From: Verrucomicrobiota bacterium
GTDB taxonomy: Bacteria > Verrucomicrobiota > Verrucomicrobiia > Palsa-1439
Length of the DNA stretch: 64,000 nucleotides
Reading direction: 5' to 3'
Assembly: GCA_003152315.1 (NCBI GenBank)
Contig: PLZV01000037.1
Coordinates: 41,679-105,678 of the forward strand
The notes beneath the pieces were generated by a model, which was given only the letters and a program-made list of their open reading frames with translations, made no database searches and was not told the origin of the DNA. How positions within the stretch are numbered: position 1 is the first letter of the stretch; the number at the start of each line of letters is the position of its first letter. Positions 2,005 through 18,492 of this stretch are shown piece after piece. The translations under genes and the position numbers were made by a program.

Positions 2005-2078
2005 CAAAAGACGTATAAATTTGCCGGAGGCGGCAAGATAGGCCACCGGGCACGTCCAACGGCAACCACCAACCCCAT

Positions 2079-4625: not shown

Positions 4626-4911
4626 AGTCCCCTCGCAATTGTTACTCCAACTATTCCTGGCCTCGCACAGACTTGGCGCTCTGGACCCCGAGAAGGAAGG
4701 CTCCTGAGTTTTTCAGCCTGACTGGTCGCGAGTATGCCCCGTCCGACATTGAATTCAAGTCAATTTTCCGACTGACGGCACGGAATCTCCCTTGCGCCGG
4801 CTGACTTTCCGACAGTTGTAACCTAGGGAAGGACGGCCTACATACATGGTATGTAGGGGCCAAGGCCCGTCACTACCAGACTGCCACGGCTTAACCGCCG
4901 CACCACGGGCT

Positions 4912-5065
4912 CCCCAACGTGTCGTCGGCTACCGCCCGACTTTTCTTGACGCTTTTCCCCTTCGGGCTAACCGGATAATGGACGCCTAGCCGTTGTCCCT
5001 TATCTAAAATCATCAAGAAAAGTCGGGCGGACCGGATTATCATCCTAGCCGACGACACGTTGGGG
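4912..5065. repeat. 38-bp perfect inverted repeat (arms 4912-4949 and 5013-5065, right arm interrupted by a 15-nt insertion) enclosing a 63-nt loop
   Basis: The reverse complement of ccccaacgtgtcgtcggctaccgcccgacttttcttga equals tcaagaaaagtcgggcgg + tagccgacgacacgttgggg. Flanked by ct(a/g)ccgcaccgaca direct repeats at about 5088 and 5174 and a second imperfect inverted repeat (4951-4967 / 5125-5146). Confidence 0.8.
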
Positions 5066-5331
5066 GACTGGTTTTAAGATAAGGTGCTACCGCACCGACA
5101 ACCACCCCGCTACCGCGACCGGTTCGCCCCGAAGGGCGGAGAAAAGCGTGCCGCGAACGCGGCATTTAGGACACTGCCGCACCGACAGGTGCGTCCTCGT
5201 TTCCGCCGCAACTGGCAAGTTTAGGCGTCTTCTTTTCCACCCTGCTAGTCTCGTATCCTGTCAGCACGGGATCATTCGGATCTCAAAACCAGCCACCATT
5301 ACCTCGTCGGCTGCCCCAAAACCATCTGCCG

Positions 5332-6699
5332 ATGCGACCACAACGGAAGTCCAATACACGCCGGATTTTCACTGCGGCAGGAGTGGTGACTGGTTTTGGC
5401 ACCATGAATGACCACACTATCACAATCGGTGAACGCGAGGGCTGGGGTAAACCCCAGCTTTTCGGCATATCTGCCATTGACCAGCGCCAGCACATCTACG
5501 TCATCGGAAAAACTGGTTCTGGTAAGACGACATTGCTGCGCAATTTGATTTTGCAACATATCGCCCTTGGACATGGAGTCGGTTTGATTGATCCCCACGG
5601 GGATTTGGCCGAAGAACTATTGAACCATATTCCTCCGCATCGTGCCGATCATCTAGTATATTTCAATCCGGGCGACATCGAGTTTCCCATAGGGCTTAAT
5701 TTGCTCGCCAATGTCGCCCCCGACGACCGCCATCTCGTGGCCTCGGGCATTGTGAGCGCGTTCAAGGGCATTTGGCGCGACTCATGGGGTCCGCGTCTGG
5801 AATACATCCTGTACAATGCCGTATCGGCACTTCTTGATTGCCGGAATGCCACCCTTTTGGGCGTCAACCGTATGCTTACGGATGACACATTCCGGGCCAA
5901 GGTGATTCGGCAGAGCAAAGACCCATTCATCCGAGCGTTTTGGGCAGAGGAATATGCCGGATACGACGAGCGTTTCAAACGGGAGGCCATTGCACCGATT
6001 CAGAACAAGCTCGGCCAATTCCTCTTGAATCCAGTGGTCCGCAACATTCTCGGCCAGGTCAAAGCGAAGGTGAACATTCCGTTCGTGATGGACAACCAGC
6101 GTCTTTTCATCGCCAATTTGTCCAAAGGCAGGCTTGGACACGACAAAGCAAACTTGCTCGGCTCCCTGCTTACGACTCAATTTCAACTTGGTGCCATGGC
6201 ACGAGCAAACCATCCCGAAGAAGAACGGCGTGACTTTTACCTTTTCATTGACGAGTTCCAGAACTTTTCCACCGATGCGTTTGCTTCGATTCTTGCGGAA
6301 GCGCGCAAGTATCGTCTTTGTTTGACCCTTTCGCATCAATACATAGACCAGCTCCCACTGCCGATTCGTCAGGCGGTCTTTGGCAACGTAGGGACGCTCA
6401 TTGCCTTTCGCATCGGCAGCACCGATGCCGAGGTGATGGAAAAGGAGTTTGGTAATACGATCCCCGCAAGCGTCCTTGCCGACCTTGACCGCTATGAGGC
6501 AGTGGTGAAATTGCTCGTGGAGGGAAGCAACCTCGAATCGTTCCGGGCTAAGATGCTTCCGCCATTAGAAAATCGCATCGGACGGAAGGGCAAACTCATT
6601 GCACGATCACGCGAGCGATTCTCCACTCCGCGTACCAAGATTGATGAAAAGCTGAGTCGGTGGATGGGTGGACTGATTGTACCGAAAATCGACGGGTAA
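5332..6699 (+). CDS. VirD4/TraG/TraD-like P-loop ATPase (coupling-protein-type, FtsK/HerA superfamily), no TM anchor
   Basis: Walker A VIGKTGSGKTTLL, then GLIDPHGD, and Walker B FYLFIDEFQNFST (LDEFxxL-type, as in T4SS coupling proteins). Paralogous to the core of the 20931-24035 protein. An alternative start at 5404 is possible. Confidence 0.65.
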   Translation: MRPQRKSNTRRIFTAAGVVTGFGTMNDHTITIGEREGWGKPQLFGISAIDQRQHIYVIGKTGSGKTTLLRNLILQHIALGHGVGLIDPHGDLAEELLNHIPPHRADHLVYFNPGDIEFPIGLNLLANVAPDDRHLVASGIVSAFKGIWRDSWGPRLEYILYNAVSALLDCRNATLLGVNRMLTDDTFRAKVIRQSKDPFIRAFWAEEYAGYDERFKREAIAPIQNKLGQFLLNPVVRNILGQVKAKVNIPFVMDNQRLFIANLSKGRLGHDKANLLGSLLTTQFQLGAMARANHPEEERRDFYLFIDEFQNFSTDAFASILAEARKYRLCLTLSHQYIDQLPLPIRQAVFGNVGTLIAFRIGSTDAEVMEKEFGNTIPASVLADLDRYEAVVKLLVEGSNLESFRAKMLPPLENRIGRKGKLIARSRERFSTPRTKIDEKLSRWMGGLIVPKIDG

Positions 6700-6720
6700 G
6701 GGTTGGCACGCCGCAGTCAT

Positions 6721-7266
6721 TCATACAGCAGCGCGCTGTGTGGTTTCGTCAAGGCGGCTGTATTCCGAGCCATTGTGCGCACTGACCCAGAGTTCAAGTC
6801 TTTCCATCTGATTTCCAACAATCGTCATGATAAAACAATCTAGTTCGTGCTGAGATTTACGAAAGGCATCTGCCATAGAATTCAAGTCCAACCGAGACGG
6901 TGTCGGTTTCGGTTCCGGATGAGTGTGCCATTCACCGATAAAATGCAACCCCTTATCAAAATATTGTCTAATGAGCCGTCGCTGCAAAATCCGATTCGGA
7001 ATGAACAATGTCCTCCACCGTTTATCGGCCACGTTCGGAGGAGAAGCTTCGACTACCAGAATCAACGGAAAGTCAAATTCTGCAAAGAGAAGCCCGCCAG
7101 CTTCTGGTTCGTCTTCTTTTTGGCGATATGTTGAAAAGATTTCTAATGCTTTCCTAGTCACAATAAGCTCTTGTTTGGAATGTGGAAAAGCAAAGCGGCG
7201 TGAATTTAAGAATTTTTCTGAGCGCATACGCCGCAAGTATTTGATTTGGTCCAATTTTTTCGGCAT
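6721..7266 (-). CDS. JAB/MPN (JAMM) metallopeptidase, Cap3-like deubiquitinase-type
   Basis: Complete JAMM motif: upstream Glu (EAGGLLFAEF) plus EWHTHPEPKPTPSRLD (HxHx7Sx2D). Overlaps the upstream E2-E1 gene, consistent with operon coupling. Confidence 0.8.
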   Translation of the reverse strand: MPKKLDQIKYLRRMRSEKFLNSRRFAFPHSKQELIVTRKALEIFSTYRQKEDEPEAGGLLFAEFDFPLILVVEASPPNVADKRWRTLFIPNRILQRRLIRQYFDKGLHFIGEWHTHPEPKPTPSRLDLNSMADAFRKSQHELDCFIMTIVGNQMERLELWVSAHNGSEYSRLDETTQRAAV

Positions 7267-8993
7267 ATTCTTGAATAGCCAGTACGGCTAACCTCCGGCT
7301 TCCACATTTCTGTGAGATTGGCTTCCACCGATTTAAAATGCTCAGCGCTACTGATCCAAGTATTTAGAAAAGAATCTGGAGAAGGGCTAAGGAGTGATTC
7401 AACGACAATAGACGCAATCATCGAGGCAACCGGCATTAATGCAGTCGGACCATAATGCTGATAGTGGGTGCATCCACCAGGTTCTTTCGAAAAGGGTGTT
7501 TTTCCAAAATCAGCTACTGCCTGACTGAACCGTCCGAATTCATTTGCAGCGCATTCAAAACATCCACCGTTCGGTCCGACAACCAAGCAATGTCCTGCTA
7601 CAGCATGCGGTTCGAGCCAACCCAAAACCAACGGGGACATTTGTATTTTACGTGACAATTCGTTCAACGGGCGCTCACATCGCCACTCACCAGTGGTTGA
7701 GACTACCAAATGGTATTCCGCGAAAAGATTTGGATTAGACCTGAATATATCTCTCCAATCTTTGGGAATGCCTTTAATACTCAGATGAGGCATCTCACGC
7801 GTTAATTCTTCGGCGAGGGCTTCGGCCTTCGAACGTCCTACAGACGACGCTCCCAAGATATGCCGACCAAGATTCTCCCAACCAAGATTGTCATTATCTG
7901 TCAATGTGAGATGGCCGATACCCGCACGACTTAAAAGATGAGCAACATATCCACCCAATGAACCGCATCCGATTAACAAAACAGATTTTTTGGAAAGGTC
8001 TCTGCCATCGCCCCCTCTCGAATGAATCCACTGGTGATCGACCCGACAGACAACGCGTCTTATTACGGCATTGGAGGCAAGCATTCCTACAGCACGTTTG
8101 CGCAATAGATCCGCCGGAATCTTTTCTAAGCGGAAGCCGCGAGTGATCTCAGGTGACTGTCGTAAGTGCCCAAGCACAGGAAAAATAACGCCTCCCAACG
8201 TCACCCCTTCACTTTCCTTTTGAATAAGCAGGACGAGACCTTCCTCAGAACCATTTGCGACGTGTTCTTTTATCAGGTCAGCAACTGAAGAGTCGTTAGT
8301 CCCTGCAAGGGTCAATAAGTCTCTCAGCGCGTTCGGGTAGTCGCCGGGAAGTAGTGGGGGATTCAAACTAATCGCCAAACCAAGCCTGCTCGCTTTTAGT
8401 TCAGAGGGTTTCCCTGTGTGATTTAAAATCCAGCTGTTTATTCGTTCCATCGATGAAGCGACACAAATATATTCTTTGCAGAAGACAACGACAAAACGTT
8501 TGCCAAGTTGTTCCGGTGGATCAATTAGGACAATAGATTGGTCCTGGAGTGTTGCCGAGCGATTCCAATAAGAAGTAAATTCATCACGAAAATCAAGCGG
8601 GTCTGTTCCTTTCAGAATCTTTTCGGCATCATCAAATACGTAACGAACAATGGCTGCCGGGTCCTTGCTGTTAATTGCCGCCGAATTCGGGATAGTACAG
8701 ATAAAACCACGTGCATCTATATGCGGATTTTTAAATACGAGATCTCTCGCATCGGCAATGCAGGCGATAGGGGCTTCATCGGGAAAATCCCGAGGAAGCC
8801 CCACATTTACGATCCATTCCTTATCCAAAATGCGGAACGATTTTCGCCACACAGTAGGACATTCAGCCAGGAGCTGCGGAGCATCCTTTGCTGATACCAG
8901 CTCAAATGCTGAATCCGTGGCCAAATCGGCTTGGACCGCTTCAAGGGCGTGATGAAGGCGCTCTCGCAAAAAGTTTTGCGATTCATCACCCAT
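7206..8993 (-). CDS. E2-E1 fusion protein (N-terminal UBC-like E2, C-terminal ThiF/MoeB-like E1), Cap2-like
   Basis: E2 signature FKNPHIDARGFICTIP (an HPN-like NPH followed by a catalytic Cys). E1 Rossmann LLIGCGSLGGYVAHLL plus TDNDNLGWENLGRH. Zinc motifs CFEC ... CGVC. ATG at 8993 with a GGAGG ribosome-binding site; an alternative GTG sits at 9008. Confidence 0.8.
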   Translation of the reverse strand: MGDESQNFLRERLHHALEAVQADLATDSAFELVSAKDAPQLLAECPTVWRKSFRILDKEWIVNVGLPRDFPDEAPIACIADARDLVFKNPHIDARGFICTIPNSAAINSKDPAAIVRYVFDDAEKILKGTDPLDFRDEFTSYWNRSATLQDQSIVLIDPPEQLGKRFVVVFCKEYICVASSMERINSWILNHTGKPSELKASRLGLAISLNPPLLPGDYPNALRDLLTLAGTNDSSVADLIKEHVANGSEEGLVLLIQKESEGVTLGGVIFPVLGHLRQSPEITRGFRLEKIPADLLRKRAVGMLASNAVIRRVVCRVDHQWIHSRGGDGRDLSKKSVLLIGCGSLGGYVAHLLSRAGIGHLTLTDNDNLGWENLGRHILGASSVGRSKAEALAEELTREMPHLSIKGIPKDWRDIFRSNPNLFAEYHLVVSTTGEWRCERPLNELSRKIQMSPLVLGWLEPHAVAGHCLVVGPNGGCFECAANEFGRFSQAVADFGKTPFSKEPGGCTHYQHYGPTALMPVASMIASIVVESLLSPSPDSFLNTWISSAEHFKSVEANLTEMWKPEVSRTGYSRICRKNWTKSNTCGVCAQKNS

Positions 8994-9354
8994 GCCGACC
9001 GCCTCCACGAAGATCTACCGGACTTGTAGGCGTCTGACGTGCTATGCCCGCGTCGCGGTCAGCAATTTTGCAATCAACACACTCTGGCTGTTCCAAAAGG
9101 TTGTCGTTCGGCTTCCCATCTGCGTGAGATCGAAGAAACGGAGGTTTGCCATTTTCTCGCACCACCAATACTTCGCACTCCTTGCCCGTCGTTTTGTCGA
9201 TTGTATAAAAACCCGCTTTCTGGTTTTCGATGAGAAAAATGGCGTCTTCGCGTGTAAATCGCCATTTTTCCTGGAGATTGCCGACATGCGTGATATGCTC
9301 ATGAGGACTGTGATGATGAGGCTTATTAATACAAGTTATTTGATATTTTTTCAT
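8986..9354 (-). CDS. small His-rich protein with disordered C-terminal tail ending LRGG-GRHG (candidate ubiquitin-like conjugation substrate or precursor)
   Basis: ATG at 9354 with an aggaag ribosome-binding site. Sequence MKKYQITCINKPHHHSPHEHITHVG... ends ...TSPVDLRGGGRHG. Its 3' end overlaps the E2-E1 start by 8 bp. Similarity to any DUF family is uncertain. Confidence 0.55.
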   Translation of the reverse strand: MKKYQITCINKPHHHSPHEHITHVGNLQEKWRFTREDAIFLIENQKAGFYTIDKTTGKECEVLVVRENGKPPFLRSHADGKPNDNLLEQPECVDCKIADRDAGIARQTPTSPVDLRGGGRHG

Positions 9355-9533
9355 GACGTTCGGCTTCCTATAGTTTTTGTTCGGTTGAACTACTTGCGAG
9401 CCTTGACACCTCTCGCGGTTTATTCGCGATACAGTAAGACTTCGCAAAACAGTATGTCAAGCCATCTTTTTGCGAATTTCTTCTGGACAAAACGTCCTTA
9501 GGACTTTAAAAAGCAACATGAAATTATTAAGCC
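9355..9533. promoter_or_regulatory. divergent promoter/operator region between the conjugation-like operon and the HTH-peptidase pair
   Basis: 179-bp AT-richer intergenic region. It contains a perfect 9-bp inverted repeat ttcgcaaaa-N17-ttttgcgaa (9441-9475), a ttgaca -35-like hexamer (about 9398) and short cgcgag/ctcgcg palindromes. Confidence 0.4.
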
Positions 9534-9935
9534 ATGAATTCCGTAGGTGAGCGAATTAAGGCCCGTCGGCTGGAACTGGGGTGGACCCAAGAAGAGTTGT
9601 GCAAAAAGGCAAACATCAGCACAGGCTTTTTATCAGATCTTGAAAATAGCAAGCGTAGTGTAAGCGCCGAAACACTTCTAGGCATTGCGCACGTGCTTTC
9701 GCTCAGTCTCGATTATTTAATGAAGGGCGATTCAACACAAATTCAAACAGCACAAGTTCAATTCCCTGCGAATTTGGCCGAACTTGCAAAGACAGAGAAC
9801 ATCTCGTTCGTCCAAGCCTTGACCGTTTTAGATATGAGAATGCAAATCGTTGCTCACCGAAGCGTGTCAAAATCGGATGACTTGGAGAATTTTGATTGGA
9901 AGAAGTTTTACGATTCGGTCAAAGAGTTCTTATGA
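9534..9935 (+). CDS. XRE-family helix-turn-helix transcriptional regulator (CapH/ImmR-like)
   Basis: N-terminal HTH_XRE signature GERIKARRLELGWTQEELCKKANISTGFLSDLENSKRSVSAETL. Overlaps the downstream peptidase start by ATGA. Confidence 0.8.
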   Translation: MNSVGERIKARRLELGWTQEELCKKANISTGFLSDLENSKRSVSAETLLGIAHVLSLSLDYLMKGDSTQIQTAQVQFPANLAELAKTENISFVQALTVLDMRMQIVAHRSVSKSDDLENFDWKKFYDSVKEFL

Positions 9936-10987
9936 AAAAACTGGATAGCGAATACGAGATCCACAAGCTGGCGGCAGGGCTGAAAGTCGATTGGCAGCAA
10001 AATGCTGTGCAAAATATCATTGCTCTATGCCACGACAAAATCTCTAAATGGACCAAGGGAATTTCTAAAATTCGATCTATCCAAGAACTAGAAGTGCTGG
10101 TTTGCGAAAAGGTGAAATTGGTCTTTGAAGAGATTTACAGAGAAGACGACCTAAAAGCAGTCATCCGAAAGTATGTAAGTTTGGGTGAACCGATTTTTTC
10201 CACGCTTAAAACCGACTTGGACGAGAAGACTTTTGCAACTCTAATTGAAAGACGTAGAATTGATGGCAATTCACAAGATCGATATGTGGCAGTCATTGAT
10301 TGCAGAGGAAGTAAGGCACCGCGGCGCTTTTTTTCGCGATGGCATGAAATTGCTCATTTACTAACACTTCAAGGCCAGCTTCAACTTCCTTTGCATCGTT
10401 CCACCACGGATCGAAGTCCTACGGAAAGACTGATGGATACGATTGCTGGAGAAATCGGATTTTATGATCCTCTTTTCCGCCCTATCTTACGTGATGAAAT
10501 TGCAAAGGAAGGTGGCTTCGCCTTTACCACGGTCGAAAGAGTCAGAGGCCGATTTTGCCCGGAGGCCAGCTTTCAGGCGACGTTAAATGCGTGTGTTAAT
10601 CGGCTTGATGTGCCCATGCTTCTGGTGGAAATTGGTTTGGGGTATAAGAAGGAAGAAGAAAGGCAAATATTTTCTTCCCAGACAACTCTATTTTCTGAGG
10701 CACATCCGAAACCAAAGTTGCGAGTTTCGACAATAATAGGCAATGATAGGGCTCGCGGCACTTCGTTAAAGATTCACCGAAATATGCAGGTTCCTGCCGC
10801 CTCCGTGTTACATCGTTTCTTTTTCAAAGAAGACGATCTCCCCGCAAAAGAGCTAGAGGGTTTTGAAAACCTGAACATATGGCGGCACTCGGACGGCGGA
10901 GCGCTTGCAAACCTTTCAGTTAGAATTCGAGTTCGTCGTTTCGAAAGTTCAGTAATTGCGTTAATTTCGCCGGCGAGGCTTACCTGA
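9932..10987 (+). CDS. ImmA/IrrE-family zinc metallopeptidase (COG2856; CapP/ImmA-like)
   Basis: HExxH motif within RWHEIAHLL. ATGA overlap with the upstream HTH gene gives the canonical HTH plus ImmA-peptidase two-gene module. Confidence 0.75.
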   Translation: MKKLDSEYEIHKLAAGLKVDWQQNAVQNIIALCHDKISKWTKGISKIRSIQELEVLVCEKVKLVFEEIYREDDLKAVIRKYVSLGEPIFSTLKTDLDEKTFATLIERRRIDGNSQDRYVAVIDCRGSKAPRRFFSRWHEIAHLLTLQGQLQLPLHRSTTDRSPTERLMDTIAGEIGFYDPLFRPILRDEIAKEGGFAFTTVERVRGRFCPEASFQATLNACVNRLDVPMLLVEIGLGYKKEEERQIFSSQTTLFSEAHPKPKLRVSTIIGNDRARGTSLKIHRNMQVPAASVLHRFFFKEDDLPAKELEGFENLNIWRHSDGGALANLSVRIRVRRFESSVIALISPARLT

Positions 10988-11009
10988 TATCTCTGGCGGC
11001 GAAGAAAAA

Positions 11010-11090
11010 CAGGGCGGCTGCCTCCCCAGTTTTCCTCTCGACACCTTTTCCTCTCCCGCCTCGCAGCTACCCAGATGGATCGTCTTGGGC
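11010..11090. repeat. copy 1 of an ~80-bp GC-rich imperfect direct repeat
   Basis: gggcggctgcctccccagttttcctctcgacaccttttcc...gctacccagatgg versus copy 2 gggcggctgccgccccagttttcctctagacgcctttccc...gctacgcagatgc, about 80% identity. Confidence 0.7.
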
Positions 11091-11223
11091 TGCATACGCT
11101 GGGGCTTCACCCCACCTTCGCTACGTCGACCCCCCGGACCCCTTCGACGGCGCAGGCGTTGTTCCGCCCCGCTCCTTCCGCCCAATCCGACCACCAGGGC
11201 TTAACGCTGCTACCAGAGGAACA

Positions 11224-11305
11224 CACGGGCGGCTGCCGCCCCAGTTTTCCTCTAGACGCCTTTCCCCCACCCGAGGCGCGGCTACGCAGATGCTCGCCCC
11301 GTCTG
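11224..11305. repeat. copy 2 of the ~80-bp GC-rich imperfect direct repeat
   Basis: See copy 1. The two copies are about 215 bp apart in a roughly 520-bp noncoding gap. Confidence 0.7.
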
Positions 11306-11508
11306 CGCTGGCAGGCGCTACACGACATCACCTACCGCTTGCCATGACGAGCACCCGCGCTTCACGCCGCGACGGATTGGGATGCTCCCGCCACCGGGAG
11401 CAGCAAAACAAGCTTCGACCATCCACAGACCCTTAAAATTCACTATAGACTTTAAGCTATTTAGAACGCTTTCGAGTCTTGTAAAAGTACGTAGAATAAC
11501 CAAGAAAC

Positions 11509-12585
11509 CTATGCACCGGCCATGATGGCCGCACGCGTCTTCGGACCGACAATGCCAGTCTGACTGATATGGTGACCTTTCTGATACTTCATAATCGCAG
11601 CCTCAGTTAAACTTCCAAAAAGCCCTTTCACATTACCGGTCGGTATGACCAAAAATCCTTTTTCTACAAGGAATGTCTGCACGGCGCTTACATCGCTGCC
11701 GGTATCGCCAATGTGGAGATCATGCGTCAGCACCAGCGAAGCTGAAGCGGTAGGGGCGACAACGCCTCCCGTGTCGGCAACAACGGCTGCCTCTGTCAAC
11801 GGACCGGCTGTGCCAGTAGGAGTGATCCGCCTTGTGCGCTGATAGCTCTCTACCGCCGTCCTGGTAAGCAAGCCGTAAAGACCATAGGCAATGCCGGCTG
11901 GCATGTTGAGAAGCCCTTTACTGACCAGGAACTTCTGCAATGCAGTGACATCGGGGCCACTATCGCCGACTTGGAGATTTCGAGAGTATGGGGAGCTTGG
12001 TCCACTGACGACTGGTGCAGTAGAGGGTGTGCAGGTCAATCCTGCGGGGCAATTCGACACCGAAGGAGCATTCAGGGAATTAAGATACGCCGTGGTAGAA
12101 GCCCCCGGAGCGAGAAGAGTGGCAAGCACGCTTGGCGAGACAGAGCCACCACCTATAGAAACACTTCCACCACTGGATTCTGGCGGAGGCGGCGAAGGTG
12201 GGCTTGAATTTGCACAAATCGTAGCTGATGGAGTGATCGTATTCGTGACTGTGCTACCGCCGGAATATGAAAGCGAGAGGGTCGAAGCGGAACCCGTGCA
12301 CACGTTTGAAGTGACATTAGACTGCACGTCAGTCGATAACTGGTTCAGAGTCGGAGAAGAGACGGTGATAGAGGAGCCAGAAGCAAGTGTCACTGTGAAA
12401 TTAGATGCATTGACGGTGATAGACTGGATGACGGCGCTTGAGCCGGAGATGTTCAGGGTATAGCCGCCGACGAGAATGTGGACATCCGTGGTCAGTGATA
12501 CATCGTTGAAGGCGGCAAGGGCTATAATAGGAACGAAGAACCCAACTAGGATAATCGTTGATAGTTTAGATATTTGGTGAGACAT
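11509..12585 (-). CDS. secreted protein with Ig-like Ser/Thr-rich region and two C-terminal peptidoglycan-binding (PG_binding_1) domains
   Basis: TM/signal segment, then two repeats of the type LQVGDSGPDVTALQKFLVSKGLL...GLYGLLTRTAVESYQ and LHIGDTGSDVSAVQTFLVEKGFL...GLFGSLTEAAIMKYQ. The most likely ATG is at 12585; the ORF track extends to 12648. Confidence 0.6.
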   Translation of the reverse strand: MSHQISKLSTIILVGFFVPIIALAAFNDVSLTTDVHILVGGYTLNISGSSAVIQSITVNASNFTVTLASGSSITVSSPTLNQLSTDVQSNVTSNVCTGSASTLSLSYSGGSTVTNTITPSATICANSSPPSPPPPESSGGSVSIGGGSVSPSVLATLLAPGASTTAYLNSLNAPSVSNCPAGLTCTPSTAPVVSGPSSPYSRNLQVGDSGPDVTALQKFLVSKGLLNMPAGIAYGLYGLLTRTAVESYQRTRRITPTGTAGPLTEAAVVADTGGVVAPTASASLVLTHDLHIGDTGSDVSAVQTFLVEKGFLVIPTGNVKGLFGSLTEAAIMKYQKGHHISQTGIVGPKTRAAIMAGA

Positions 12586-12598
12586 AATCTGCTTGCGG

Positions 12599-13945
12599 CT
12601 AATACGTAGGGAACCCCGACAAATCAACCGGCGTGAGCGTTTGTCCACCGAGACTCGTTATGGCGGCGTTGATAGCCGATATATTACCCACTATATCCGA
12701 CGCTCCGTCAGGAAAATAACCCGATTTGTAATACCATGTCCCCAACGCAACGGCCTGTCCATTGATGACCATCAAAATAGGAGAGCCACTGTCCCCCGAG
12801 GCTATGGGCAAGTACCAACCCGCATACTGGCTCGTATTCGGGGAATAGATGTACTGCCCCGGCTGAATGATGGCAACAACGTCGCTGTCGAATGCCACAG
12901 CCGATCCTATGCTCAGACTTCTGTATTGATTCGTGAAAAGAACGAGCGGATGTGCGTAAGAAATGGCAGCTTTCGTCATCTTTGTCCCGTCTGTTCCATC
13001 AGAAATGCCGACACTACCCGAGGCGAATACTTTCGCCGGTGTGATTCCAGAAGGAACGGCTGACGAGAGCTTCATCACTTGTATGTCCACGCCGACATGA
13101 GCGCTTGCAGTGATGGTCCTTGAAACGGTCGTGTTGTCATTCTTGACGAAATAAACCGTGGTGCCATTCGGTATATACGCGTGATTGGATTGGATCAAAA
13201 TATCAGGAGTCACGAGGATCCCATTAAATCTGGCACCCCCATACGGATTGCTTCCGGTCGGTGGAGGGCTGTCCCAATCGCTCCAAACGGGAATAGCGGT
13301 CAGGTCGACGGCACCAGTAAAGATGTTTGGATTTCTGGTATATACGTGATTGACATCATCGGTCGAGGAGTAGATGTTCTGCGTGCTTGCCGACGGCGTC
13401 TTGCCTGAGATCATGGCACTGATCTCGCTGAAGATGTCGCTTCCGAGCGATCCCGATACCAGGCTGTTAAAAATCGTGTTGTACGAATTATGGGTGTGCA
13501 ACATCGGGCATTCGATGCCGCGTGTAAGCCGGCCAATCGTAACCCCGAATGTTGCAGTGCCGTCGCCGACATACGACACTACGCCATTGAAATCCACGGT
13601 GCCGTAGGACGGATCTTTGGCGCTGAAAATAGGCGTGACATTATCAGCGCCAAGCACGGTTAAGACGCATGAATATATGACGCTGCCCGAATTATAGAAA
13701 TTATATACGACATCATTTGTGTTGATCGTACCGTTTGATGAACCCATGGTGATCGTACTTGACGATGTGCTGGCAATAGAGAAATCCTCTATTTGCGCTC
13801 CGCTCAAAGCAGAACCGAAAAGCTGCGGGGCAGTGGTTGTCGCAACGCTCGTATAGTGTATCGTAAAATAAGCCTGCGCATTGCCATGAACCAACAGTGA
13901 GAAACCGACTGCGACAACACATCTTATTATGGTCTTCATTCTCAT
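12599..13945 (-). CDS. secreted trypsin-like (S1 family) serine peptidase
   Basis: Signal peptide MRMKTIIRCVVAVGFSLLVHGNAQA. Canonical GDSGSP active-site serine motif in the C-terminal domain. Confidence 0.65.
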   Translation of the reverse strand: MRMKTIIRCVVAVGFSLLVHGNAQAYFTIHYTSVATTTAPQLFGSALSGAQIEDFSIASTSSSTITMGSSNGTINTNDVVYNFYNSGSVIYSCVLTVLGADNVTPIFSAKDPSYGTVDFNGVVSYVGDGTATFGVTIGRLTRGIECPMLHTHNSYNTIFNSLVSGSLGSDIFSEISAMISGKTPSASTQNIYSSTDDVNHVYTRNPNIFTGAVDLTAIPVWSDWDSPPPTGSNPYGGARFNGILVTPDILIQSNHAYIPNGTTVYFVKNDNTTVSRTITASAHVGVDIQVMKLSSAVPSGITPAKVFASGSVGISDGTDGTKMTKAAISYAHPLVLFTNQYRSLSIGSAVAFDSDVVAIIQPGQYIYSPNTSQYAGWYLPIASGDSGSPILMVINGQAVALGTWYYKSGYFPDGASDIVGNISAINAAITSLGGQTLTPVDLSGFPTY

Positions 13946-13946
13946 G

Positions 13947-15578
13947 CTATTTTATGAGAGTCCACGGTTCGGAACCCATGCACAACCACAAATGATGGTT
14001 CGCTTTGTTATAGACGCTCGTCCCTTCAAGCGTCGAATTGCAGGTGAATCCGGTGGATGTTGACGTAACGGCTCCGCGATAACCGCCGTTTATATCGACG
14101 CCAACTGAAGGCGCGGGATTACCAACGCCTATTTTGCCGCCATCAAATACAATGATATTGGGAATATCACCAGATTGTTGATCTCCAGTGACAACGCTAT
14201 TGGTAAATATGAAGTCACCGCCTTCTCCATTCTGGAATAGCATTATTCCATCCCCAAGTTGGAGATCACCAGAACTATCTTCGGACGCTATCCTTTGCGT
14301 GTCAGCGAAACCACTACTGGGAGTGAGATGGTCAAATACTATTCCACTACTATCACTGCTCAAATTTATACTACCTGTGCTTGTCAAAGTAGTTCCAGTA
14401 ACTGTATCTGCCGACGTAGTTCCATTATATGTCGCCGTCGTTCCACTCAATGACCACAGTCCGAGCGGATTCAGATTTGCAACTGTCTGCGAGCCATCGC
14501 CTATTTTCCCGTGTTTCGTGTCAGTCTCATAAACCATCTCGCCTGCTGCGGGTATTATGCCGGATAAGGCTGAGGCGGTTCCTTCTCGCGGAATAACAGC
14601 GGCATTCAAGTTTCCGCTGCTATCAAGGAGCGTATTGTTGCCGATTTTGATCGTGCCACCCGGCGCAAGGGTGAGGCTCGGCGCAGTCAGCACAGTCCCG
14701 TCAAATGTGAAGCCGGCATTACTGCCAAAAGAACCGCTTGCATTGAACTGCACCGTGCCCGAAGCCGCGGCAGGGCTAGTCGCGCCGCCCCCGCCGCTCG
14801 ACAGACATGTTCCATTTACGGCAAAGCATCCGGCGGCGATATTGATGCCGTTCCCGACCGTGGAGGTCGCGGAGGAACCGGTCAGATTGAGATAGGTTCC
14901 TTGTATTCCACCAGAAAACGTCGTTGTGCCGGTGTTGGAGAATGCCTGCAAGCCGGTAAATGTATTCGCGGTGTATGCCTTCGGGATAGTCGATGAACCA
15001 TTGATATATGAATTGACATCAGCGTTTGTGTAATTTGCTGATCCACCGCCGACGCACGAACCGTTTATCGAGAAACACCCTCCGGTCAGATTGATACCGT
15101 TCGCAAAGGTGGAACTGGCTAATGAGGACGTGATATTGAGCAGAAGCGTCTGGAGCCCTCCGGCAAATGTCGAAGTAGCTGTCGATGAAGTAGCCGTGTA
15201 GGATGCGGCTGTGGGAGTCCCTGTGGCAGTCAGCGTCGAAGAGTTGATCCACGAAGAGAGCATGCCGGCCACGCCGCCCGACAGACTACCGCCTCCGCTT
15301 CCTCCGACGCACGAACCGTTTATGGAGAAACAGCCGGAAGTAAGATTCAATCCGCCGGCAAAGGTCGAGGTAGATACATTGGTTGATGCCAGATTCGTCA
15401 CCGTGGTCGTACCGGCTGAGAGCGTGCTTCCAAGCGTTGCCGCTCCGGAAACATTGAGCGCACCGCCGGTGACGATGTCGGTGCTGATCGTGGTCGCGGC
15501 AAAAGCACTGTGAACAACCAAGATAGAGAATACGACAACTACAAAGGTTGTCGAGATGACCTGTGTATATGGCTTCAT
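13947..15578 (-). CDS. secreted Gly/Thr-rich repetitive protein with recurring Cys-containing motif (fiber/adhesin-like)
   Basis: Signal/TM segment, then at least four repeats containing G(C)F(S/A)(I/V)NG(S/T)C(V/L)(G/S)G embedded in T/S/G-rich beta-repeat sequence. Confidence 0.55.
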   Translation of the reverse strand: MKPYTQVISTTFVVVVFSILVVHSAFAATTISTDIVTGGALNVSGAATLGSTLSAGTTTVTNLASTNVSTSTFAGGLNLTSGCFSINGSCVGGSGGGSLSGGVAGMLSSWINSSTLTATGTPTAASYTATSSTATSTFAGGLQTLLLNITSSLASSTFANGINLTGGCFSINGSCVGGGSANYTNADVNSYINGSSTIPKAYTANTFTGLQAFSNTGTTTFSGGIQGTYLNLTGSSATSTVGNGINIAAGCFAVNGTCLSSGGGGATSPAAASGTVQFNASGSFGSNAGFTFDGTVLTAPSLTLAPGGTIKIGNNTLLDSSGNLNAAVIPREGTASALSGIIPAAGEMVYETDTKHGKIGDGSQTVANLNPLGLWSLSGTTATYNGTTSADTVTGTTLTSTGSINLSSDSSGIVFDHLTPSSGFADTQRIASEDSSGDLQLGDGIMLFQNGEGGDFIFTNSVVTGDQQSGDIPNIIVFDGGKIGVGNPAPSVGVDINGGYRGAVTSTSTGFTCNSTLEGTSVYNKANHHLWLCMGSEPWTLIK

Positions 15579-15877
15579 TGGTCTTATAGGGTACGATTAA
15601 AGAAACGACTGATTTGTAAGAAACGTACCAGTTATTGTAGCACTTCTTGTGTTGTGTATTATCCCCAGATTTGATGCGGTGTAAGCGGGTGCCTCCCTTC
15701 AATATCATCACGGATAGCGAGATACGCATAAGCAAAGGAGGAAGTCATTCTCACAACGGCCAGCGACTTGCATTAAAGCGCAAACCTTGACGCCTTCTTC
15801 GTTTGCTCCCTCTCCGGCAAGGTGGAGCGATGGATTCCCGTCTTCCACGTTTCAAACGCACCACCACCGTTGCTCGC

Positions 15878-16735
15878 ATGGCACTGACGGAGCGCGACCG
15901 CCAAATCATCCGGCTCGTTCACCGGCATCGTTTTCTCCGTTCTCCGCAAATTGTCGCCTTGATCGGCGGCAGTTCGCAGCAGCTTTTGCGACGATTACAA
16001 TTGCTGTATCACCATGGATATTTGGAACGCCCACGCGCCCAGATTGATTATTACCACCAGGGCGGCTCCCGCCACATCATCTACGGTTTAGGGAATAAGG
16101 GAGGGGGGATGTTGTTGAAACAAGAACTTGGTGTTGCTTTTCGTGAATTCTCATGGGGCGAGAAGAACCGCGCCGTTGGCCGGATGTTCCTTGAACATGC
16201 GCTCTTAGTCTCGGATGTGATGGTGACGATTGAACTTGCTTGCCGTGAGCGTGGAATTCGGCTCGTTACCGAGAGAGAACTTGTGCTTCCCGGCAAGCAC
16301 CAACCGTTCCGGTGGAGAGTGAACATACACAACCACGTGAAACTTGGCGTCATCCCGGATCGCGTGTTCGCCTTGGAACTTCTCGATGCCAGCGGCTCAA
16401 GCCGGCGGGCATATTTCTTTCTTGAAGCTGACCGGGGCACGATGCCGGTCACGCGTCGAAATCTTTCCCAGACTTCCTTCTACCGCAAGCTCCTCGCCTA
16501 TGAAGCAACCTGGACGCAAAACTTGCATCGCATACGTTTTGGTTTCCATCGCTTCCGCGTGCTCACCGTCACCACCAGTACCGCGCGGGTGAAGTCACTT
16601 GTAGATGCCTGTTCACAATTGGAACGCGGGCATGGACTCTTTCTGTTTGCCGACCGGACAATTTTGTCTGGTGATATGTTTTCCTCGATATGGCAGACCG
16701 GCAAGCCGGGCGAAACCGGCAGTTTGTTGGATTAG
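15878..16735 (+). CDS. replication-relaxation family protein (plasmid/ICE type)
   Basis: N-terminal winged-HTH-like LTERDRQIIRLVHRHRFLRSPQIVAL typical of the replication-relaxation family. The ORF track extends to an upstream ATG at 15803. Confidence 0.6.
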   Translation: MALTERDRQIIRLVHRHRFLRSPQIVALIGGSSQQLLRRLQLLYHHGYLERPRAQIDYYHQGGSRHIIYGLGNKGGGMLLKQELGVAFREFSWGEKNRAVGRMFLEHALLVSDVMVTIELACRERGIRLVTERELVLPGKHQPFRWRVNIHNHVKLGVIPDRVFALELLDASGSSRRAYFFLEADRGTMPVTRRNLSQTSFYRKLLAYEATWTQNLHRIRFGFHRFRVLTVTTSTARVKSLVDACSQLERGHGLFLFADRTILSGDMFSSIWQTGKPGETGSLLD

Positions 16736-16865
16736 GCCTCTTGCCGCAAACGGCAAATCTTCCCGTCTAGTGGGTTTGGGCAGGAGCCGTAGGATGCTCT
16801 CTGGATGCGGTTCTACTTCGTGAGCCGCAAATAGTTCATCACAACCAAATAACCATAGGAGTAAT

Positions 16866-17894: not shown

Positions 17895-18205
17895 AGACCT
17901 ACGAAGGAAGACGTTTCCCCCTCGGATTGGAAGTCACGGTCAACGGTCAGTCGCTCGATCCTCGTTTCGACTTGTGGGATCATAGTCCCACGGGTTTCGA
18001 GTGGGGTTACGCTGGTAGCGGCCCCGCGCAACTGGCACTGGCGTTACTCGCAGACCATCTCGACGATGACGAGCGGGCAATCACCCTACACCAGGACTTC
18101 AAATGGGCTGTGGTGACGAAGTTGCCACACTCCTGGACACTTACGACCGACGACATTGAGCGGACGTTGCAATCGCTTGTCGGAAAAGTGGGCAGTCATG
18201 TCTGA
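17891..18205 (+). CDS. hypothetical protein (mobile-element associated)
   Basis: GTGA overlap with the primase stop and ATGTCTGA overlap with the next gene. No recognizable motif. Confidence 0.4.
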   Translation: MKTYEGRRFPLGLEVTVNGQSLDPRFDLWDHSPTGFEWGYAGSGPAQLALALLADHLDDDERAITLHQDFKWAVVTKLPHSWTLTTDDIERTLQSLVGKVGSHV

Positions 18206-18485: not shown

Positions 18486-18492
18486 TCAAAAG

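What the first reader, a model, noticed from the sequence alone, without database searches (positions are those of the whole stretch)
9355..10987. Divergent XRE-HTH + ImmA/IrrE metallopeptidase pair with palindromic operator; CapH/CapP-like or ImmR/ImmA-like damage-responsive switch
An HTH repressor is translationally coupled (ATGA) to an HExxH peptidase. The pair is transcribed divergently from the E2-E1/JAB operon across a 179-bp region containing a perfect 9-bp inverted repeat (ttcgcaaaa-N17-ttttgcgaa). This layout is how CapH/CapP place CBASS under DNA-damage control, and how ImmR/ImmA control ICE excision. It predicts that the conjugation-like operon, or the element as a whole, is induced by DNA damage or phage infection.
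Basis: partly seen in the sequence, partly recalled or inferred. Interest (0 to 1): 0.6.

Follow-up and report, generated by a model that had tools for sequence, protein, structure and literature searches.

The report
Damage-type repressor–peptidase switch on defence cassette
A DNA-binding repressor gene is fused head-to-tail with a zinc-peptidase gene that probably cuts the repressor. The pair sits back-to-back with a ubiquitin-like conjugation operon, a known kind of stress or phage-responsive on-switch, here in a highly diverged and so far unannotated form.

Summary
A 133-aa XRE repressor gene (9534-9935) overlaps by ATGA a 351-aa HExxH protein gene (9932-10987). The pair lies 179 bp from, and divergent to, a DUF3892 / Cap2-like E2-E1 / Cap3-like JAB operon. 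The 9-bp inverted repeat exists at 9441-9449 and 9468-9476, but its spacer is 18 nt, not 17.

The peptidase matches no Pfam, NCBIfam, PADLOC or PDB sequence model. Its AlphaFold model nevertheless hits only PprI/IrrE and CapP (Foldseek probability 1.0). H138, E139, H142 and E165 are invariant in 91 relatives. The repressor is DdrO-like along its full length, including a three-helix C-terminal domain and an invariant Arg109.

The pair is a portable module. In more than 100 loci from Planctomycetota, Verrucomicrobiota, Acidobacteriota and others it sits divergent to Pycsar, CBASS, 6e ubiquitin-like, short pAgo or Cap2-like operons. A conserved GTTCGC-type motif always lies about 115 nt upstream of the repressor gene and overlaps a sigma-70-like divergent promoter. 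The palindrome's left arm is one such site.

Verdict: this is a CapH/CapP- and DdrO/IrrE-class switch, a new, sequence-diverged variant of a known kind. Induction by ssDNA or DNA damage is inferred, not shown. Interest is moderate. The regulated DUF3892 protein has an invariant PVDLRGGGRHG tail and is the more intriguing lead.

The parts
9534..9935 (+). Repressor gene (133 aa): N-terminal XRE helix-turn-helix (residues 4-64), flexible linker (65-78), three-helix C-terminal domain (79-132) with invariant P78, L81, A85, A107, R109, W122
   Evidence: Pfam HTH_3 at 1.5e-14 and PADLOC capH at 9.8e-9. The family profile matches DdrO end to end. The AF2 model has pLDDT 82.6, and its top Foldseek hit is DdrO 6jq1. 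Conservation is shown.
9932..10987 (+). Zinc metallopeptidase gene (351 aa), IrrE/PprI/CapP-type: peptidase domain, helical linker domain and a GAF-like C-terminal domain. Catalytic H138, E139, H142, and E165 as the likely third zinc ligand.
   Evidence: No Pfam, NCBIfam, PADLOC or PDB sequence hit. The AF2 model has pLDDT 88.7. Foldseek finds only PprI, IrrE and CapP at E<=2.3e-6; the next hit is at 0.056. W137, H138, E139, H142, E165 and D169 are invariant in 91/91 relatives, and R131 in 90/91. hhalign places HEIAH on CapP HELGH and R131 on CapP R89.
9932..9935 (+). ATGA start/stop overlap (translational coupling of repressor and peptidase)
   Evidence: Read directly from the sequence. The same overlap occurs in 59/85 related loci, and the others have tight junctions. 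It is also present in Thauera capH/capP.
9355..9533 (.). 179-bp divergent control region
   Evidence: The only block conserved among relatives is 9422-9476; the rest has diverged.
9423..9436 (+). Operator-like repeat 1: TTCGCGATACAGTA
   Evidence: Direct repeat family D1. TTCGC and ACAGTA are invariant in close relatives. A first TTCGC lies at about -115 from the repressor start across the family.
9441..9454 (+). Operator-like repeat 2: TTCGCAAAACAGTA (18 nt after repeat 1). Its first 9 nt form the left arm of the palindrome.
   Evidence: Twenty-five loci have two TTCGC 17-19 nt apart, and 23 of them are followed by GTCAA 15-16 nt later.
9468..9476 (+). Inverted third copy, TTTTGCGAA (right arm of the 9-bp palindrome)
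   Evidence: It is kept 31-32 nt after repeat 2 in 8 of the 25 loci with the direct pair. It is identical in L111 and L107.
9431..9460 (-). Predicted promoter of the divergent operon: -35 TTGACA (9460-9455), 18-nt spacer containing repeat 2, -10 TACTGT (9436-9431). Inferred, not mapped.
   Evidence: GTCAA (TTGAC on the minus strand) is enriched 5.3-fold and present in 62/85 loci. Of 64 such sites, 49 have TAnnnT 16-19 nt downstream. The consensus scan did not call it, because the -10 matches only 3 of 6 positions.
9484..9512 (+). Predicted repressor-gene promoter: -35 TGGACA (9484-9489), 17-nt spacer, -10 TAAAAA (9507-9512). Inferred.
   Evidence: Relatives have CTTGCA/TTGAC and TAnAAA at the aligned positions. 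The consensus scan did not call it.
8986..9354 (-). First regulated gene: DUF3892 protein (122 aa) with a C-terminal tail PVDLRGGGRHG
   Evidence: Pfam DUF3892 at 9.2e-16. The tail is invariant in 14/14 homologues of 122-125 aa and absent from the shorter DUF3892 proteins.
7206..9008 (-). Cap2-like E2-E1 fusion (600 aa)
   Evidence: Pfam Prok-E2_B plus ThiF. PADLOC E1-E2 at 2.1e-138.
6721..7266 (-). Cap3-like JAB isopeptidase (181 aa)
   Evidence: Pfam Prok-JAB. PADLOC JAB at 2.8e-50. NCBIfam Cap3 at 2.9e-17, below its cut-off.
6745..10969 (.). Extent of the portable five-gene cassette (JAB, E2-E1, DUF3892, then divergently the repressor and peptidase)
   Evidence: blastn against L111 gives 77.7% identity over 4237 bp, ending within 25 bp of the outer gene ends. 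The flanks are unrelated.

Best explanation
The two genes form a self-contained transcriptional switch of the COG2856/XRE class, the class that includes IrrE(PprI)/DdrO and CapP/CapH.

Shown by sequence, structure prediction and comparative analysis:
- The repressor has an XRE DNA-binding domain, a flexible linker and a DdrO-like three-helix C-terminal domain.
- The peptidase has the IrrE/CapP three-domain fold and a fully conserved zinc site.
- The two genes are translationally coupled and always travel together.
- A conserved GTTCGC-type DNA motif accompanies the pair whatever the neighbouring operon is. In this window it occurs three times (9423, 9441 and, inverted, 9472), overlapping a sigma-70-like promoter that points into the DUF3892 / Cap2-like / JAB operon.

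Inferred from characterised relatives:
- Repressor dimers or tetramers occupy these sites and shut off the divergent operon, and probably dampen their own promoter.
- When DNA damage or phage replication produces single-stranded DNA, it binds the groove between the peptidase and GAF-like domains. Arg131, the counterpart of the ssDNA-binding Arg90 of E. coli CapP (Arg89 in the Thauera protein), is conserved in 90 of 91 relatives.
- The activated peptidase cuts free repressor in the loop after helix 92-108, at or near the invariant A107-H108-R109. Oligomerisation and DNA binding are lost, and the ubiquitin-like conjugation operon is expressed.

The module acts locally on its adjacent cargo. It is not a global regulator.
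For: - Fold of the peptidase: the top five PDB hits are PprI 8slm/8sln, CapP 7t5t and IrrE 3dte/3dti, at probability 1.0 and E from 7.7e-8 to 2.3e-6. The sixth hit is at 0.056.
- Active site: W137, H138, E139, H142, E165 and D169 are invariant in 91/91 relatives and R131 in 90/91. The spacing E165-x3-D169-x2-A172 mirrors CapP E129-x3-D-x-F-A. The HExxH region and R131 align with CapP.
- Repressor: the family profile aligns with DdrO over residues 4-134 against 6-131. A C-terminal-domain-only HMM scores DdrO at 7.3 bits, reached by 1 of 2000 shuffles, and scores the CapH C-terminal domain at -1.4 bits.
- Repressor model: it shows HTH, linker and three helices, with a low-confidence loop at 109-121. 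Its best PDB match is full-length DdrO. DdrO is cut in the loop between its last two helices at L106|R107 (PMC6868357). CapH is cut at F82|R83.
- Linkage: the HTH gene lies directly upstream of the peptidase gene in 74/80 genome loci, and four of the other six are cut by contig ends. The same holds in the metagenome loci.
- Operator: phylogenetic footprints, k-mer enrichment and fixed position, and uniqueness within the window.
- Cargo is independent of the module: Pycsar, CBASS, 6e ubiquitin-like, short pAgo, Cap2-like and BREX-adjacent contexts.
- Recurrent pairing: the same DUF3892-Cap2-JAB operon occurs with this pair in L111 and L118, and with an unrelated classical HTH+PF06114 fusion in L115/L116. 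Regulators of this class have therefore been recruited to it at least twice.
- Published mechanism of relatives.
Against: - No experiment bears on this protein pair. DNA binding, cleavage and the inducing signal are all inferred.
- Sequence models of the family (PF06114, the NCBIfam library and PADLOC-DB, in which only the HTH hit a capH model) do not recognise the peptidase. A family profile finds no IrrE or CapP in PDB sequences. hhalign against CapP aligns only 49 columns at E=0.079.
- Homology therefore rests on a predicted structure, with TM-scores of only 0.43-0.46 on the query and 0.56-0.60 on the targets.
- The CapP cysteine-switch residue has no conserved counterpart: position 155 is H, Y, R or F. 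The CapH Trp35 that contacts CapP is Ser34 here. Details of activation and recognition may therefore differ.
- The predicted promoters fall below the consensus-scan thresholds.
- Sites spaced 18 nt apart in direct orientation are unusual for a simple HTH dimer.
Confidence: 0.67

Rival explanations
1. ImmR/ImmA-type immunity switch of the surrounding mobile element. In this reading the pair controls excision or transfer of the ICE-like element in which it lies, and the ubiquitin-like operon is incidental.
For: The window around the cassette carries two large serine recombinases, a Replic_Relax protein, a DnaG-like primase, ArdC and two TrwB/TraD-like ATPases. ImmR/ImmA belong to the same COG2856/XRE class. 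The N-terminal domain of ICEBs1 ImmR is among the repressor's HTH hits.
Against: The five-gene cassette occurs in L111 and L118 with unrelated flanks, and homology ends at the cassette's gene ends. No further operator-like intergenic site exists in the 64-kb window; the only extra match lies inside the E2-E1 gene. [quoted passage not shown] In about 40 related loci the divergent partner is a defence operon, not int/xis.
Confidence: 0.08
2. The peptidase-like protein antagonises the repressor without cutting it, as in Rir/Crh-type competitive disruption of oligomers. Or the pair acts as a stand-alone XRE/COG2856 toxin-antitoxin or abortive-infection module rather than as a regulator of the neighbouring operon.
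For: Both behaviours are described or predicted for COG2856/XRE pairs (PMC6868357). The HTH protein gives hits to antitoxin-type families such as HipB, Y4mF and HigA below their cut-offs. PADLOC RmrA and PDC-M69A models also match it.
Against: HExxH plus Glu is 100% invariant across sequences as low as 30% identical, which argues for catalysis. The repressor keeps an invariant Arg at the end of its penultimate helix, next to the loop between its last two helices, which is where DdrO is cut. The conserved operator overlaps the promoter of the divergent cargo in most loci.
Confidence: 0.1
3. Same switch, different trigger. This diverged clade has about 40 extra N-terminal residues, no cysteine switch and a conserved Cys124. 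It might sense something other than ssDNA, for example a phage protein, a nucleotide bound by the GAF-like domain, or redox or metal status.
For: The clade is divergent enough to escape all sequence models. Position 155 is variable and C124 is conserved in 84/91 relatives. Two additional N-terminal helices precede the CapP-equivalent core. In a distant subgroup (L066-L080) the partner genes are Ysc84 and a secretin rather than defence genes.
Against: The ssDNA-contacting Arg (CapP R90, IrrE R85) is conserved as R131. IrrE also lacks the cysteine switch and is nevertheless activated by ssDNA.
Confidence: 0.12
4. The inverted repeat is a chance feature or merely part of the promoter, and the repressor binds elsewhere.
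For: On its own the 9-bp inverted repeat has p about 0.03. Its right arm is missing from 17 of the 25 loci that keep the direct repeats. The TTCGC sites abut -10-like and -35-like hexamers.
Against: The palindrome is conserved exactly in diverged relatives. The GTTCGC motif tracks the repressor gene across phyla and across different cargo operons. A GTTCG-containing dyad also lies in the Thauera capH control region.
Confidence: 0.03

Closest known systems
CapH/CapP (Lau et al. 2022, bioRxiv 10.1101/2022.04.27.489752; Calloji et al. 2026, bioRxiv 10.64898/2026.05.16.725639)
   Same: - The HTH gene overlaps the downstream Zn-peptidase gene.
- The pair is divergent from, and shares a control region with, a defence operon (199 bp in Thauera pTX1, 179 bp here).
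- The peptidase has the three-domain peptidase / linker / GAF fold with HExxH plus Glu.
- The ssDNA-binding Arg is conserved.
- The HTH domains are related (hhalign probability 97.5%).
- The control regions share a GTTCG core.
- The range of cargo is the same: CBASS, cyclase plus cNMP-binding/TIR (Pycsar-type) operons, 6a/6e ubiquitin-like systems and DUF3892 operons.

   Different: - The peptidase is not recognised by PF06114/DUF955 or by any PADLOC-DB peptidase model.
- It has about 40 extra N-terminal residues and no cysteine switch.
- The repressor is 133 aa with a three-helix DdrO-like C-terminal domain, instead of the 107-aa CapH with its two-helix V-shaped domain.
- CapH Trp35 is replaced by Ser.
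- The operator consists of repeats 18 nt apart that overlap the promoter, rather than a single 22-bp site upstream of -35.

DdrO/IrrE (PprI) of Deinococcus (PMC6868357; PMC10904395)
   Same: - These are the best structural matches for both proteins (8slm, 3dte and 3dti for the peptidase; 6jq1 and 6rnx for the repressor).
[quoted passage not shown]
- It shares the motifs (I/L)P..LA and DW..(F/I)Y...K..L, and the recognition helix (F/Y)LSDLE.
- The operators lie around the transcription start.

   Different: - In Deinococcus the pair controls a chromosomal regulon of 14-24 genes through a 17-bp RDRM.
- Here the two genes are fused into one portable operon that acts on a single adjacent cargo operon, and no other site was found in 64 kb.
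- The hosts are PVC, Acidobacteriota and others.
- Sequence identity is only 11-12% for the peptidase and 22-25% for the repressor.

ImmR/ImmA of ICEBs1 and phage phi105
   Same: This is the same COG2856/XRE logic: a repressor cleaved by an adjacent HExxH peptidase on DNA damage. The present cassette also lies in an ICE-like region.
   Different: ImmA is a short, single-domain protein without a GAF-like domain. ImmR/ImmA control int/xis and transfer genes, whereas this pair faces a ubiquitin-like conjugation operon and moves together with it.

Membership tests
CapH/CapP regulators | HTH gene immediately upstream of, and overlapping, a Zn-metallopeptidase gene | tested here: met
   ATGA overlap at 9932-9935. 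Conserved in relatives. The junction is identical in Thauera capH/capP.
CapH/CapP regulators | Pair encoded upstream of, and on the opposite strand to, a defence or stress operon | tested here: met
   The window has a DUF3892 / E2-E1 / JAB operon 179 bp away. Relatives face Pycsar, CBASS, 6e and pAgo operons.
CapH/CapP regulators | CapP: HExxH plus a downstream Glu as zinc ligands, in a peptidase / HTH-like / GAF three-domain fold | tested here: met
CapH/CapP regulators | CapP annotated as PF06114 / DUF955 (how the published set was collected) | tested here: not met
   No Pfam hit for the window protein, and 1 of 27 relatives at E=0.0021. No PADLOC or NCBIfam peptidase hit.
CapH/CapP regulators | Cysteine-switch loop (present in 33% of CapPs, so optional) | tested here: not met
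   The residue 13 positions after the second His is H, Y, R or F, never Cys.
CapH/CapP regulators | CapH C-terminal two-helix V-shaped dimerisation/tetramerisation domain with an F|R cleavage site | tested here: not met
   The C-terminal-domain HMM scores the CapH C-terminal domain at -1.4 bits. The model has three helices. hhalign matches only the HTH part.
CapH/CapP regulators | ssDNA-stimulated cleavage of the repressor; induction by DNA damage | not testable with these tools
   Only indirect evidence: R131 aligns with the ssDNA-binding R89/R90 of CapP.
DdrO/IrrE (PprI) | [quoted passage not shown] | tested here: met
   Profile alignment to DdrO over the full length. C-terminal-domain similarity at p about 0.001. 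The model has helices 79-87, 92-108 and 122-132, and R109 is invariant. The top fold hit is DdrO. The cleavage itself was not tested.
DdrO/IrrE (PprI) | IrrE fold (COG2856 peptidase plus GAF-like domain) | tested here: met
   8slm, 8sln, 3dte and 3dti at probability 1.0.
DdrO/IrrE (PprI) | Global regulon: operator motif upstream of many dispersed DNA-repair genes | tested here: not met
   Operator patterns are found only in the 9423-9476 region, plus one intragenic match, in 64 kb. The module is portable together with its adjacent cargo. The whole genome is not available.
ImmR/ImmA | Short single-domain ImmA; pair adjacent to int and divergent from xis/conjugation genes | tested here: not met
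   The protein is 351 aa with a GAF-like C-terminal domain. Its neighbours are DUF3892 / E2-E1 / JAB. ICE genes lie outside the conserved cassette.
Type II CBASS (Cap2/Cap3 context of the regulated operon) | CD-NTase and effector genes alongside Cap2 and Cap3 | tested here: not met
   Neither the window cassette nor L111, L115 or L118 has a cyclase or effector. DUF3892 occupies the position upstream of the E2-E1 gene.

The most novel reading that the evidence does not exclude
Two linked claims remain open.

(1) The switch gates a cyclase-less Cap2/Cap3 system in which the conjugated moiety is the DUF3892 protein itself. Its 122-125-aa subfamily ends in an absolutely conserved, ubiquitin-like tail, PVDLRGGGRHG, and is found only directly upstream of Cap2-like E2-E1 and JAB genes. 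That would make it a previously undescribed bacterial ubiquitin-like modifier, produced only after DNA damage or phage attack.

(2) The regulator itself would be a Pfam-invisible, cross-phylum 'universal adaptor' clade that carries one operator code (GTTCGC) to at least five different defence system types.
Probability: 0.35. Interest if true: 0.7.

Novelty: new variant of a known kind. Interest (0 to 1): 0.4.

Why it matters
- Coverage of defence regulation. If the reading is right, a large clade of DNA-damage/ssDNA-type switches has been overlooked. It comprises more than 700 cluster representatives for the peptidase and more than 480 for the repressor. The repressors are annotated only as generic XRE-family regulators and the peptidases as 'hypothetical protein' where they are named at all. 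The clade controls Pycsar, CBASS, short pAgo and ubiquitin-like defence operons in Planctomycetota, Verrucomicrobiota, Acidobacteriota and other phyla. Present defence-finder models have no entry for this peptidase.
- A testable operator. The conserved GTTCGC operator gives a simple, testable DNA code. It could also serve as a handle for finding new cargo operons, and so candidate new defence systems, next to the module.
- Evolutionary link. The pair joins the Deinococcus DdrO/IrrE repressor architecture to the portable CapH/CapP use.
- What this instance controls. Here the switch implies that an uncharacterised DUF3892 / Cap2 / Cap3 conjugation system is expressed only under genotoxic or phage stress.

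Tried and rejected
- Sequence-level identification of the peptidase failed everywhere. Pfam, NCBIfam and PADLOC gave only a spurious Cas12a hit, and PDB phmmer and profile searches gave nothing.
- hhalign of the family profile against the single Thauera CapP sequence aligned only the HExxH region, at E=0.079.
- I considered a 'histidine switch': H155 lies at the same offset as the CapP Cys-switch. I rejected it because position 155 varies (H 42, Y 18, R 12, F 12 of 91).
- I considered that the pair is a global DdrO-like regulator. There are no further operator sites in the window.
- The built-in promoter/terminator scan found no promoter in the intergenic region. The promoters proposed here come from cross-locus conservation and are weaker than that tool's thresholds.
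- Rfam and tRNA scans of 4500-11600 and 1-20000 found nothing.
- The published CapH 22-bp operator sequence is not given in the text of Lau et al.. The GTTCG similarity to the Thauera control region is therefore my own reading of the DNA, not a confirmed shared operator.
Full report
**1. What is in the sequence**

- The plus-strand ORF 9534-9935 encodes a 133-aa protein with an XRE-type helix-turn-helix (PF01381, E=1.5e-14; PADLOC capH model, 9.8e-9).
- Its TGA stop (9933-9935) overlaps the ATG (9932-9934) of a 351-aa ORF that ends at 10987 and contains HEIAH at residues 138-142.
- On the minus strand, starting at 9354, lie three genes. The first is a DUF3892 gene (8986-9354). The second is a 600-aa E2-E1 fusion (7206-9008; Prok-E2_B plus ThiF; PADLOC E1-E2, 2.1e-138). 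The third is a JAB gene (6721-7266).
- The divergent intergenic region, 9355-9533, is 179 bp.
- The perfect 9-bp inverted repeat is TTCGCAAAA (9441-9449) and TTTTGCGAA (9468-9476). The spacer is 18 nt, not the 17 reported.

**2. Is the repeat more than chance?**

On its own it is marginal. In 5000 dinucleotide-preserving shuffles of the 179-bp region, a perfect inverted repeat of at least 9 bp appears in 3.2%.

Conservation settles it. Five close relatives were compared; their peptidases are 62-81% identical where that gene is complete. Their intergenic regions have otherwise diverged. The block ATTCGC-N3-ACAGTA-N4-CTTCGCAAAACAGTA-(A/T)GTCAA ... TTTTGCGAA is kept. The palindrome is identical in L111 and L107 and carries one mismatch in L110 and L089.

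**3. What the peptidase is**

*Sequence searches.* No sequence library recognises it: Pfam, NCBIfam, PADLOC, and PDB by phmmer or by family profile. It does have 713 homologues at E<=0.001. All 120 listed are full-length, carry no Pfam domain, and are annotated 'hypothetical protein' where a name is given. Among 27 diverse members only one gives a weak PF06114 hit, at E=0.002.

*Structure.* An AlphaFold2 model built on that alignment is confident (pLDDT 88.7, pTM 0.84). Foldseek against the PDB returns exactly five significant hits:
- PprI 8slm and 8sln;
- CapP 7t5t;
- IrrE 3dte and 3dti.

These have E from 7.7e-8 to 2.3e-6 and probability 1.0. The next hit is at E=0.056, and the weak tail of the list is mostly PAS/GAF domains, which fits a GAF-like C-terminal domain.

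*Conserved residues.* In 91 unique relatives, down to about 30% identity, W137, H138, E139, H142, E165 and D169 are invariant. R131 is conserved in 90 of 91.

*Alignment to authentic CapP.* I retrieved Thauera CapP from plasmid pTX1. hhalign aligns RRFFSRWHEIAH with RMRFTQAHELGH. This puts H138, E139 and H142 on CapP H96, E97 and H100. It puts R131 on Thauera CapP R89, which corresponds to the experimentally defined ssDNA-binding R90 of E. coli CapP and R85 of IrrE.

*Differences from CapP.*
- About 40 extra N-terminal residues.
- No cysteine switch. The residue at the equivalent offset is variable, so I dropped my initial 'His-switch' idea.

**4. What the repressor is**

*Conservation.* Orthologues from 86 loci conserve the HTH domain. 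After a variable linker they also conserve a C-terminal region, v.IP..La.fA..e.Lsf.qtl.LLdm..QIvAhRs..k...le..DW.kFYe.vKefl. P78, L81, A85, A107, R109 and W122 are invariant.

*Sequence similarity to DdrO.* A family profile aligns with Deinococcus DdrO from end to end (4-134 against 6-131). A profile of the C-terminal part alone scores the DdrO C-terminal domain at 7.3 bits. Only 1 of 2000 composition-matched shuffles reaches that score. The same profile scores the CapH C-terminal domain at -1.4 bits.

*Structure.* The AlphaFold2 model (pLDDT 82.6) shows a five-helix HTH, a disordered linker and three helices (79-87, 92-108, 122-132). [quoted passage not shown] The best PDB match is full-length DdrO 6jq1.

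*Comparison with published cleavage sites.* DdrO has exactly this plan. IrrE cuts it between L106 and R107, in the loop between its last two helices, which abolishes dimerisation and DNA binding (PMC6868357). CapP cuts CapH at F82|R83. The invariant A107-H108-R109 at the end of helix 92-108 is therefore the obvious candidate cleavage site. This is an inference.

The HTH domain is also related to that of CapH (hhalign probability 97.5%).

**5. The pair is a portable module with its own operator**

*Linkage.* A scan of 185,579 species genomes gave 80 loci. They come from Planctomycetota, Verrucomicrobiota, Lentisphaerae, Kiritimatiellales, Acidobacteriota, and a few Firmicutes and Desulfobacterota MAGs. 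A metagenome scan gave 30 more loci. The repressor gene lies directly upstream of the peptidase gene in 74 of the 80 genome loci, and four of the other six are cut by contig ends. The ATGA overlap is kept in 59 of 85 loci, with tight junctions in nearly all the rest.

*Cargo.* The divergent neighbours differ from locus to locus:

| Divergent neighbour | Loci |
|---|---|
| Pycsar (PycC, E2, PycTIR) | 9 |
| CBASS (CD-NTase with patatin or SAVED-HNH, some with Cap2/Cap3) | 12 |
| 6e-type multi-ubiquitin/E2 plus E1 | 11 |
| Short pAgo plus APAZ partner | 4-6 |
| Cap2-like E2-E1(-JAB) without a cyclase | 2 (plus the window) |
| DnaB-like helicase | 3-6 |
| Ysc84 plus secretin (a distant subgroup) | 7 |

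BREX-type BrxC genes lie downstream of the pair in 5 loci.

*Operator motif.* Despite this variety, TTCGC occurs 60-150 nt upstream of the repressor start in 74 of 85 non-redundant loci, typically near -115. There are 125 occurrences against 22.6 expected. TCGCTA is enriched 27-fold. The anchored consensus is tGTTCGC(T/A)A(T/A)ACA(G/A)GAA.
- Twenty-five loci have two direct copies 17-19 nt apart.
- In 23 of those 25, GTCAA follows 15-16 nt after the second copy.
- Eight of the 25, including the window, have a third, inverted GCGAA 31-32 nt further on.
- Acidobacterial and Firmicute loci instead carry a perfect dyad, GTTCGCTATA-N16-18-TATAGCGAAC.

*Promoter overlap.* Read on the minus strand, GTCAA is TTGAC. 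Of 64 such sites, 49 have TAnnnT 16-19 nt downstream. The repeats therefore sit in the spacer and around the start site of a sigma-70-like promoter that fires into the cargo operon. In the window these elements are:
- -35 TTGACA at 9460-9455;
- -10 TACTGT at 9436-9431;
- repeat 2 inside the spacer;
- repeat 1 just downstream of the -10;
- the inverted copy between the two divergent -35 elements.

The consensus scan did not call these promoters. They are inferred from conservation.

*Link to canonical CapH.* The Thauera CBASS-capH control region contains GTTCGGAATAGCGAAC and GTTCGGTAT, which have the same GTTCG core. Whether this is the published 22-bp CapH site cannot be verified from the paper's text.

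**6. The cassette and its surroundings**

*Extent.* Window 6745-10969 aligns with L111 at 77.7% identity over 4237 bp. The alignment stops within 25 bp of the outer gene ends, and the flanks are unrelated. The five genes therefore move as one unit.

*Recurrence of the operon with this class of regulator.*
- In L118 the same DUF3892 / Cap2 / JAB operon again sits with this repressor and peptidase family (148 and 121 bits).
- In L115 and L116 the operon sits with an unrelated, classical HTH+PF06114 fusion.
- In L117 no regulator is adjacent.

Recruitment of two different members of the same regulator class to one operon type is independent support for a regulatory relationship.

*Local action.* No other operator-like intergenic site occurs in the 64-kb window. 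This argues for local rather than regulon-wide action.

*Context.* The surrounding region looks like an integrative conjugative element. It carries serine recombinases, Replic_Relax, a primase, ArdC and TrwB-like ATPases. That keeps an ImmR/ImmA-type reading alive, at low probability.

**7. Mechanism**

*Shown:* the anatomy, the conservation, the fold assignments and the association with defence operons.

*Inferred from IrrE/DdrO and CapP/CapH:*
- Oligomeric repressor binds the GTTCGC sites and blocks the divergent promoter.
- ssDNA generated by DNA damage or phage replication activates the peptidase.
- Free repressor is cut near R109 and loses oligomerisation.
- The DUF3892 / Cap2 / Cap3 operon is transcribed.

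My confidence is about 0.7 that this is a repressor/peptidase switch for the adjacent operon. It is about 0.5 that ssDNA is the trigger.

**8. Comparison with what is known, and novelty**

Lau et al. 2022 already listed CapH/CapP-like pairs next to DUF3892 operons, 6a (E2-E1-JAB) systems and 6e systems. The logic and the context are therefore known.

What is new:
- This is a large clade that is invisible to current sequence models.
- It combines a DdrO-type repressor with an IrrE/CapP-type peptidase in the portable, defence-linked configuration.
- It carries a conserved operator code across phyla.

I rate it a new variant of a known kind, of moderate interest (0.4).

The most novel reading left open concerns the cargo. 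The DUF3892 subfamily next to Cap2-like enzymes ends in an invariant PVDLRGGGRHG (14 of 14), and shorter DUF3892 proteins lack this tail. This echoes the C-terminal Gly of cGAS that Cap2 activates (PMC10097602). It suggests that DUF3892 is itself the conjugated, ubiquitin-like moiety.

Noticed in passing
window 8986-9354 (-); also L111 5725-6096, L115/L116 5001-5375, L117 5001-5378, L118 5001-5372: The DUF3892 protein next to the Cap2-like E2-E1 ends in an invariant tail, PVDLRGGGRHG. The tail contains LRGG and a terminal Gly, and is present in 14/14 homologues of 122-125 aa. DUF3892 proteins of 91-108 aa lack it. Tail-bearing genes always sit directly upstream of E2-E1 (+JAB) genes, with no cyclase or effector. 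DUF3892 is therefore a candidate conjugated, ubiquitin-like moiety of a cyclase-less Cap2/Cap3 system.
   Followed up: partly
L115/L116 3767-4780: The same DUF3892 / Cap2 / JAB operon is preceded, on the same strand, by a 337-aa fusion of an HTH with a classical PF06114 peptidase. This is a second, unrelated regulator of the same class recruited to this operon type.
   Followed up: partly
window 4880-5090: A long, near-perfect hairpin of about 200 nt (MFE -106.6 kcal/mol, z = -9.2, no shuffle as stable). A 74%-identical copy lies in L111 at 11608-11906, on the other side of the cassette. There is no Rfam match. It may be a MITE-like element or a structured RNA.
   Followed up: partly
window 163-2004, 5332-6699, 15803-25864: The cassette lies in an ICE-like region. 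This carries two large serine recombinases (163-2004 and 24374-25864), Replic_Relax (15803-16735) and a DnaG-like primase (16866-17894). It also has an ArdC anti-restriction protein (18440-19489), a 1034-aa TrwB-like protein (20931-24035) and a 455-aa TraD/HerA-like ATPase (5332-6699; PADLOC mad8, 2e-19). A DUF87/TrwB-like ATPase also lies near the DUF3892 operon in L117.
   Followed up: partly
window 11012-11048 and 11227-11263: A 37-nt direct repeat (92% identical) lies in the non-coding stretch downstream of the peptidase gene. The second copy includes the only terminator-like hairpin called in the region, at 11227-11241.
   Followed up: no
L114 28252-28450 (Thauera sp. K11 plasmid pTX1, CBASS-capH control region): The region contains GTTCGGAATAGCGAAC and GTTCGGTAT, which share the GTTCG core with the operator motif of the family studied here. 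This suggests a half-site code shared between canonical CapH and this clade.
   Followed up: partly
peptidase residue C124 (window 10301-10303): A Cys in the motif DCRG, 14 residues before HExxH at the end of the strand that precedes the active-site helix, is conserved in 84 of 91 relatives. Its role is unknown; it might be a redox or metal-related control.
   Followed up: no
L066-L080 (Pirellulaceae/Planctomycetaceae MAGs): A distant subgroup of the module matches only residues 1-235 of the peptidase well. It is divergent to Ysc84-domain and secretin genes rather than defence genes, yet keeps the GGTTCGCTAAAT motif at about -116. The module may therefore be used outside immunity.
   Followed up: partly
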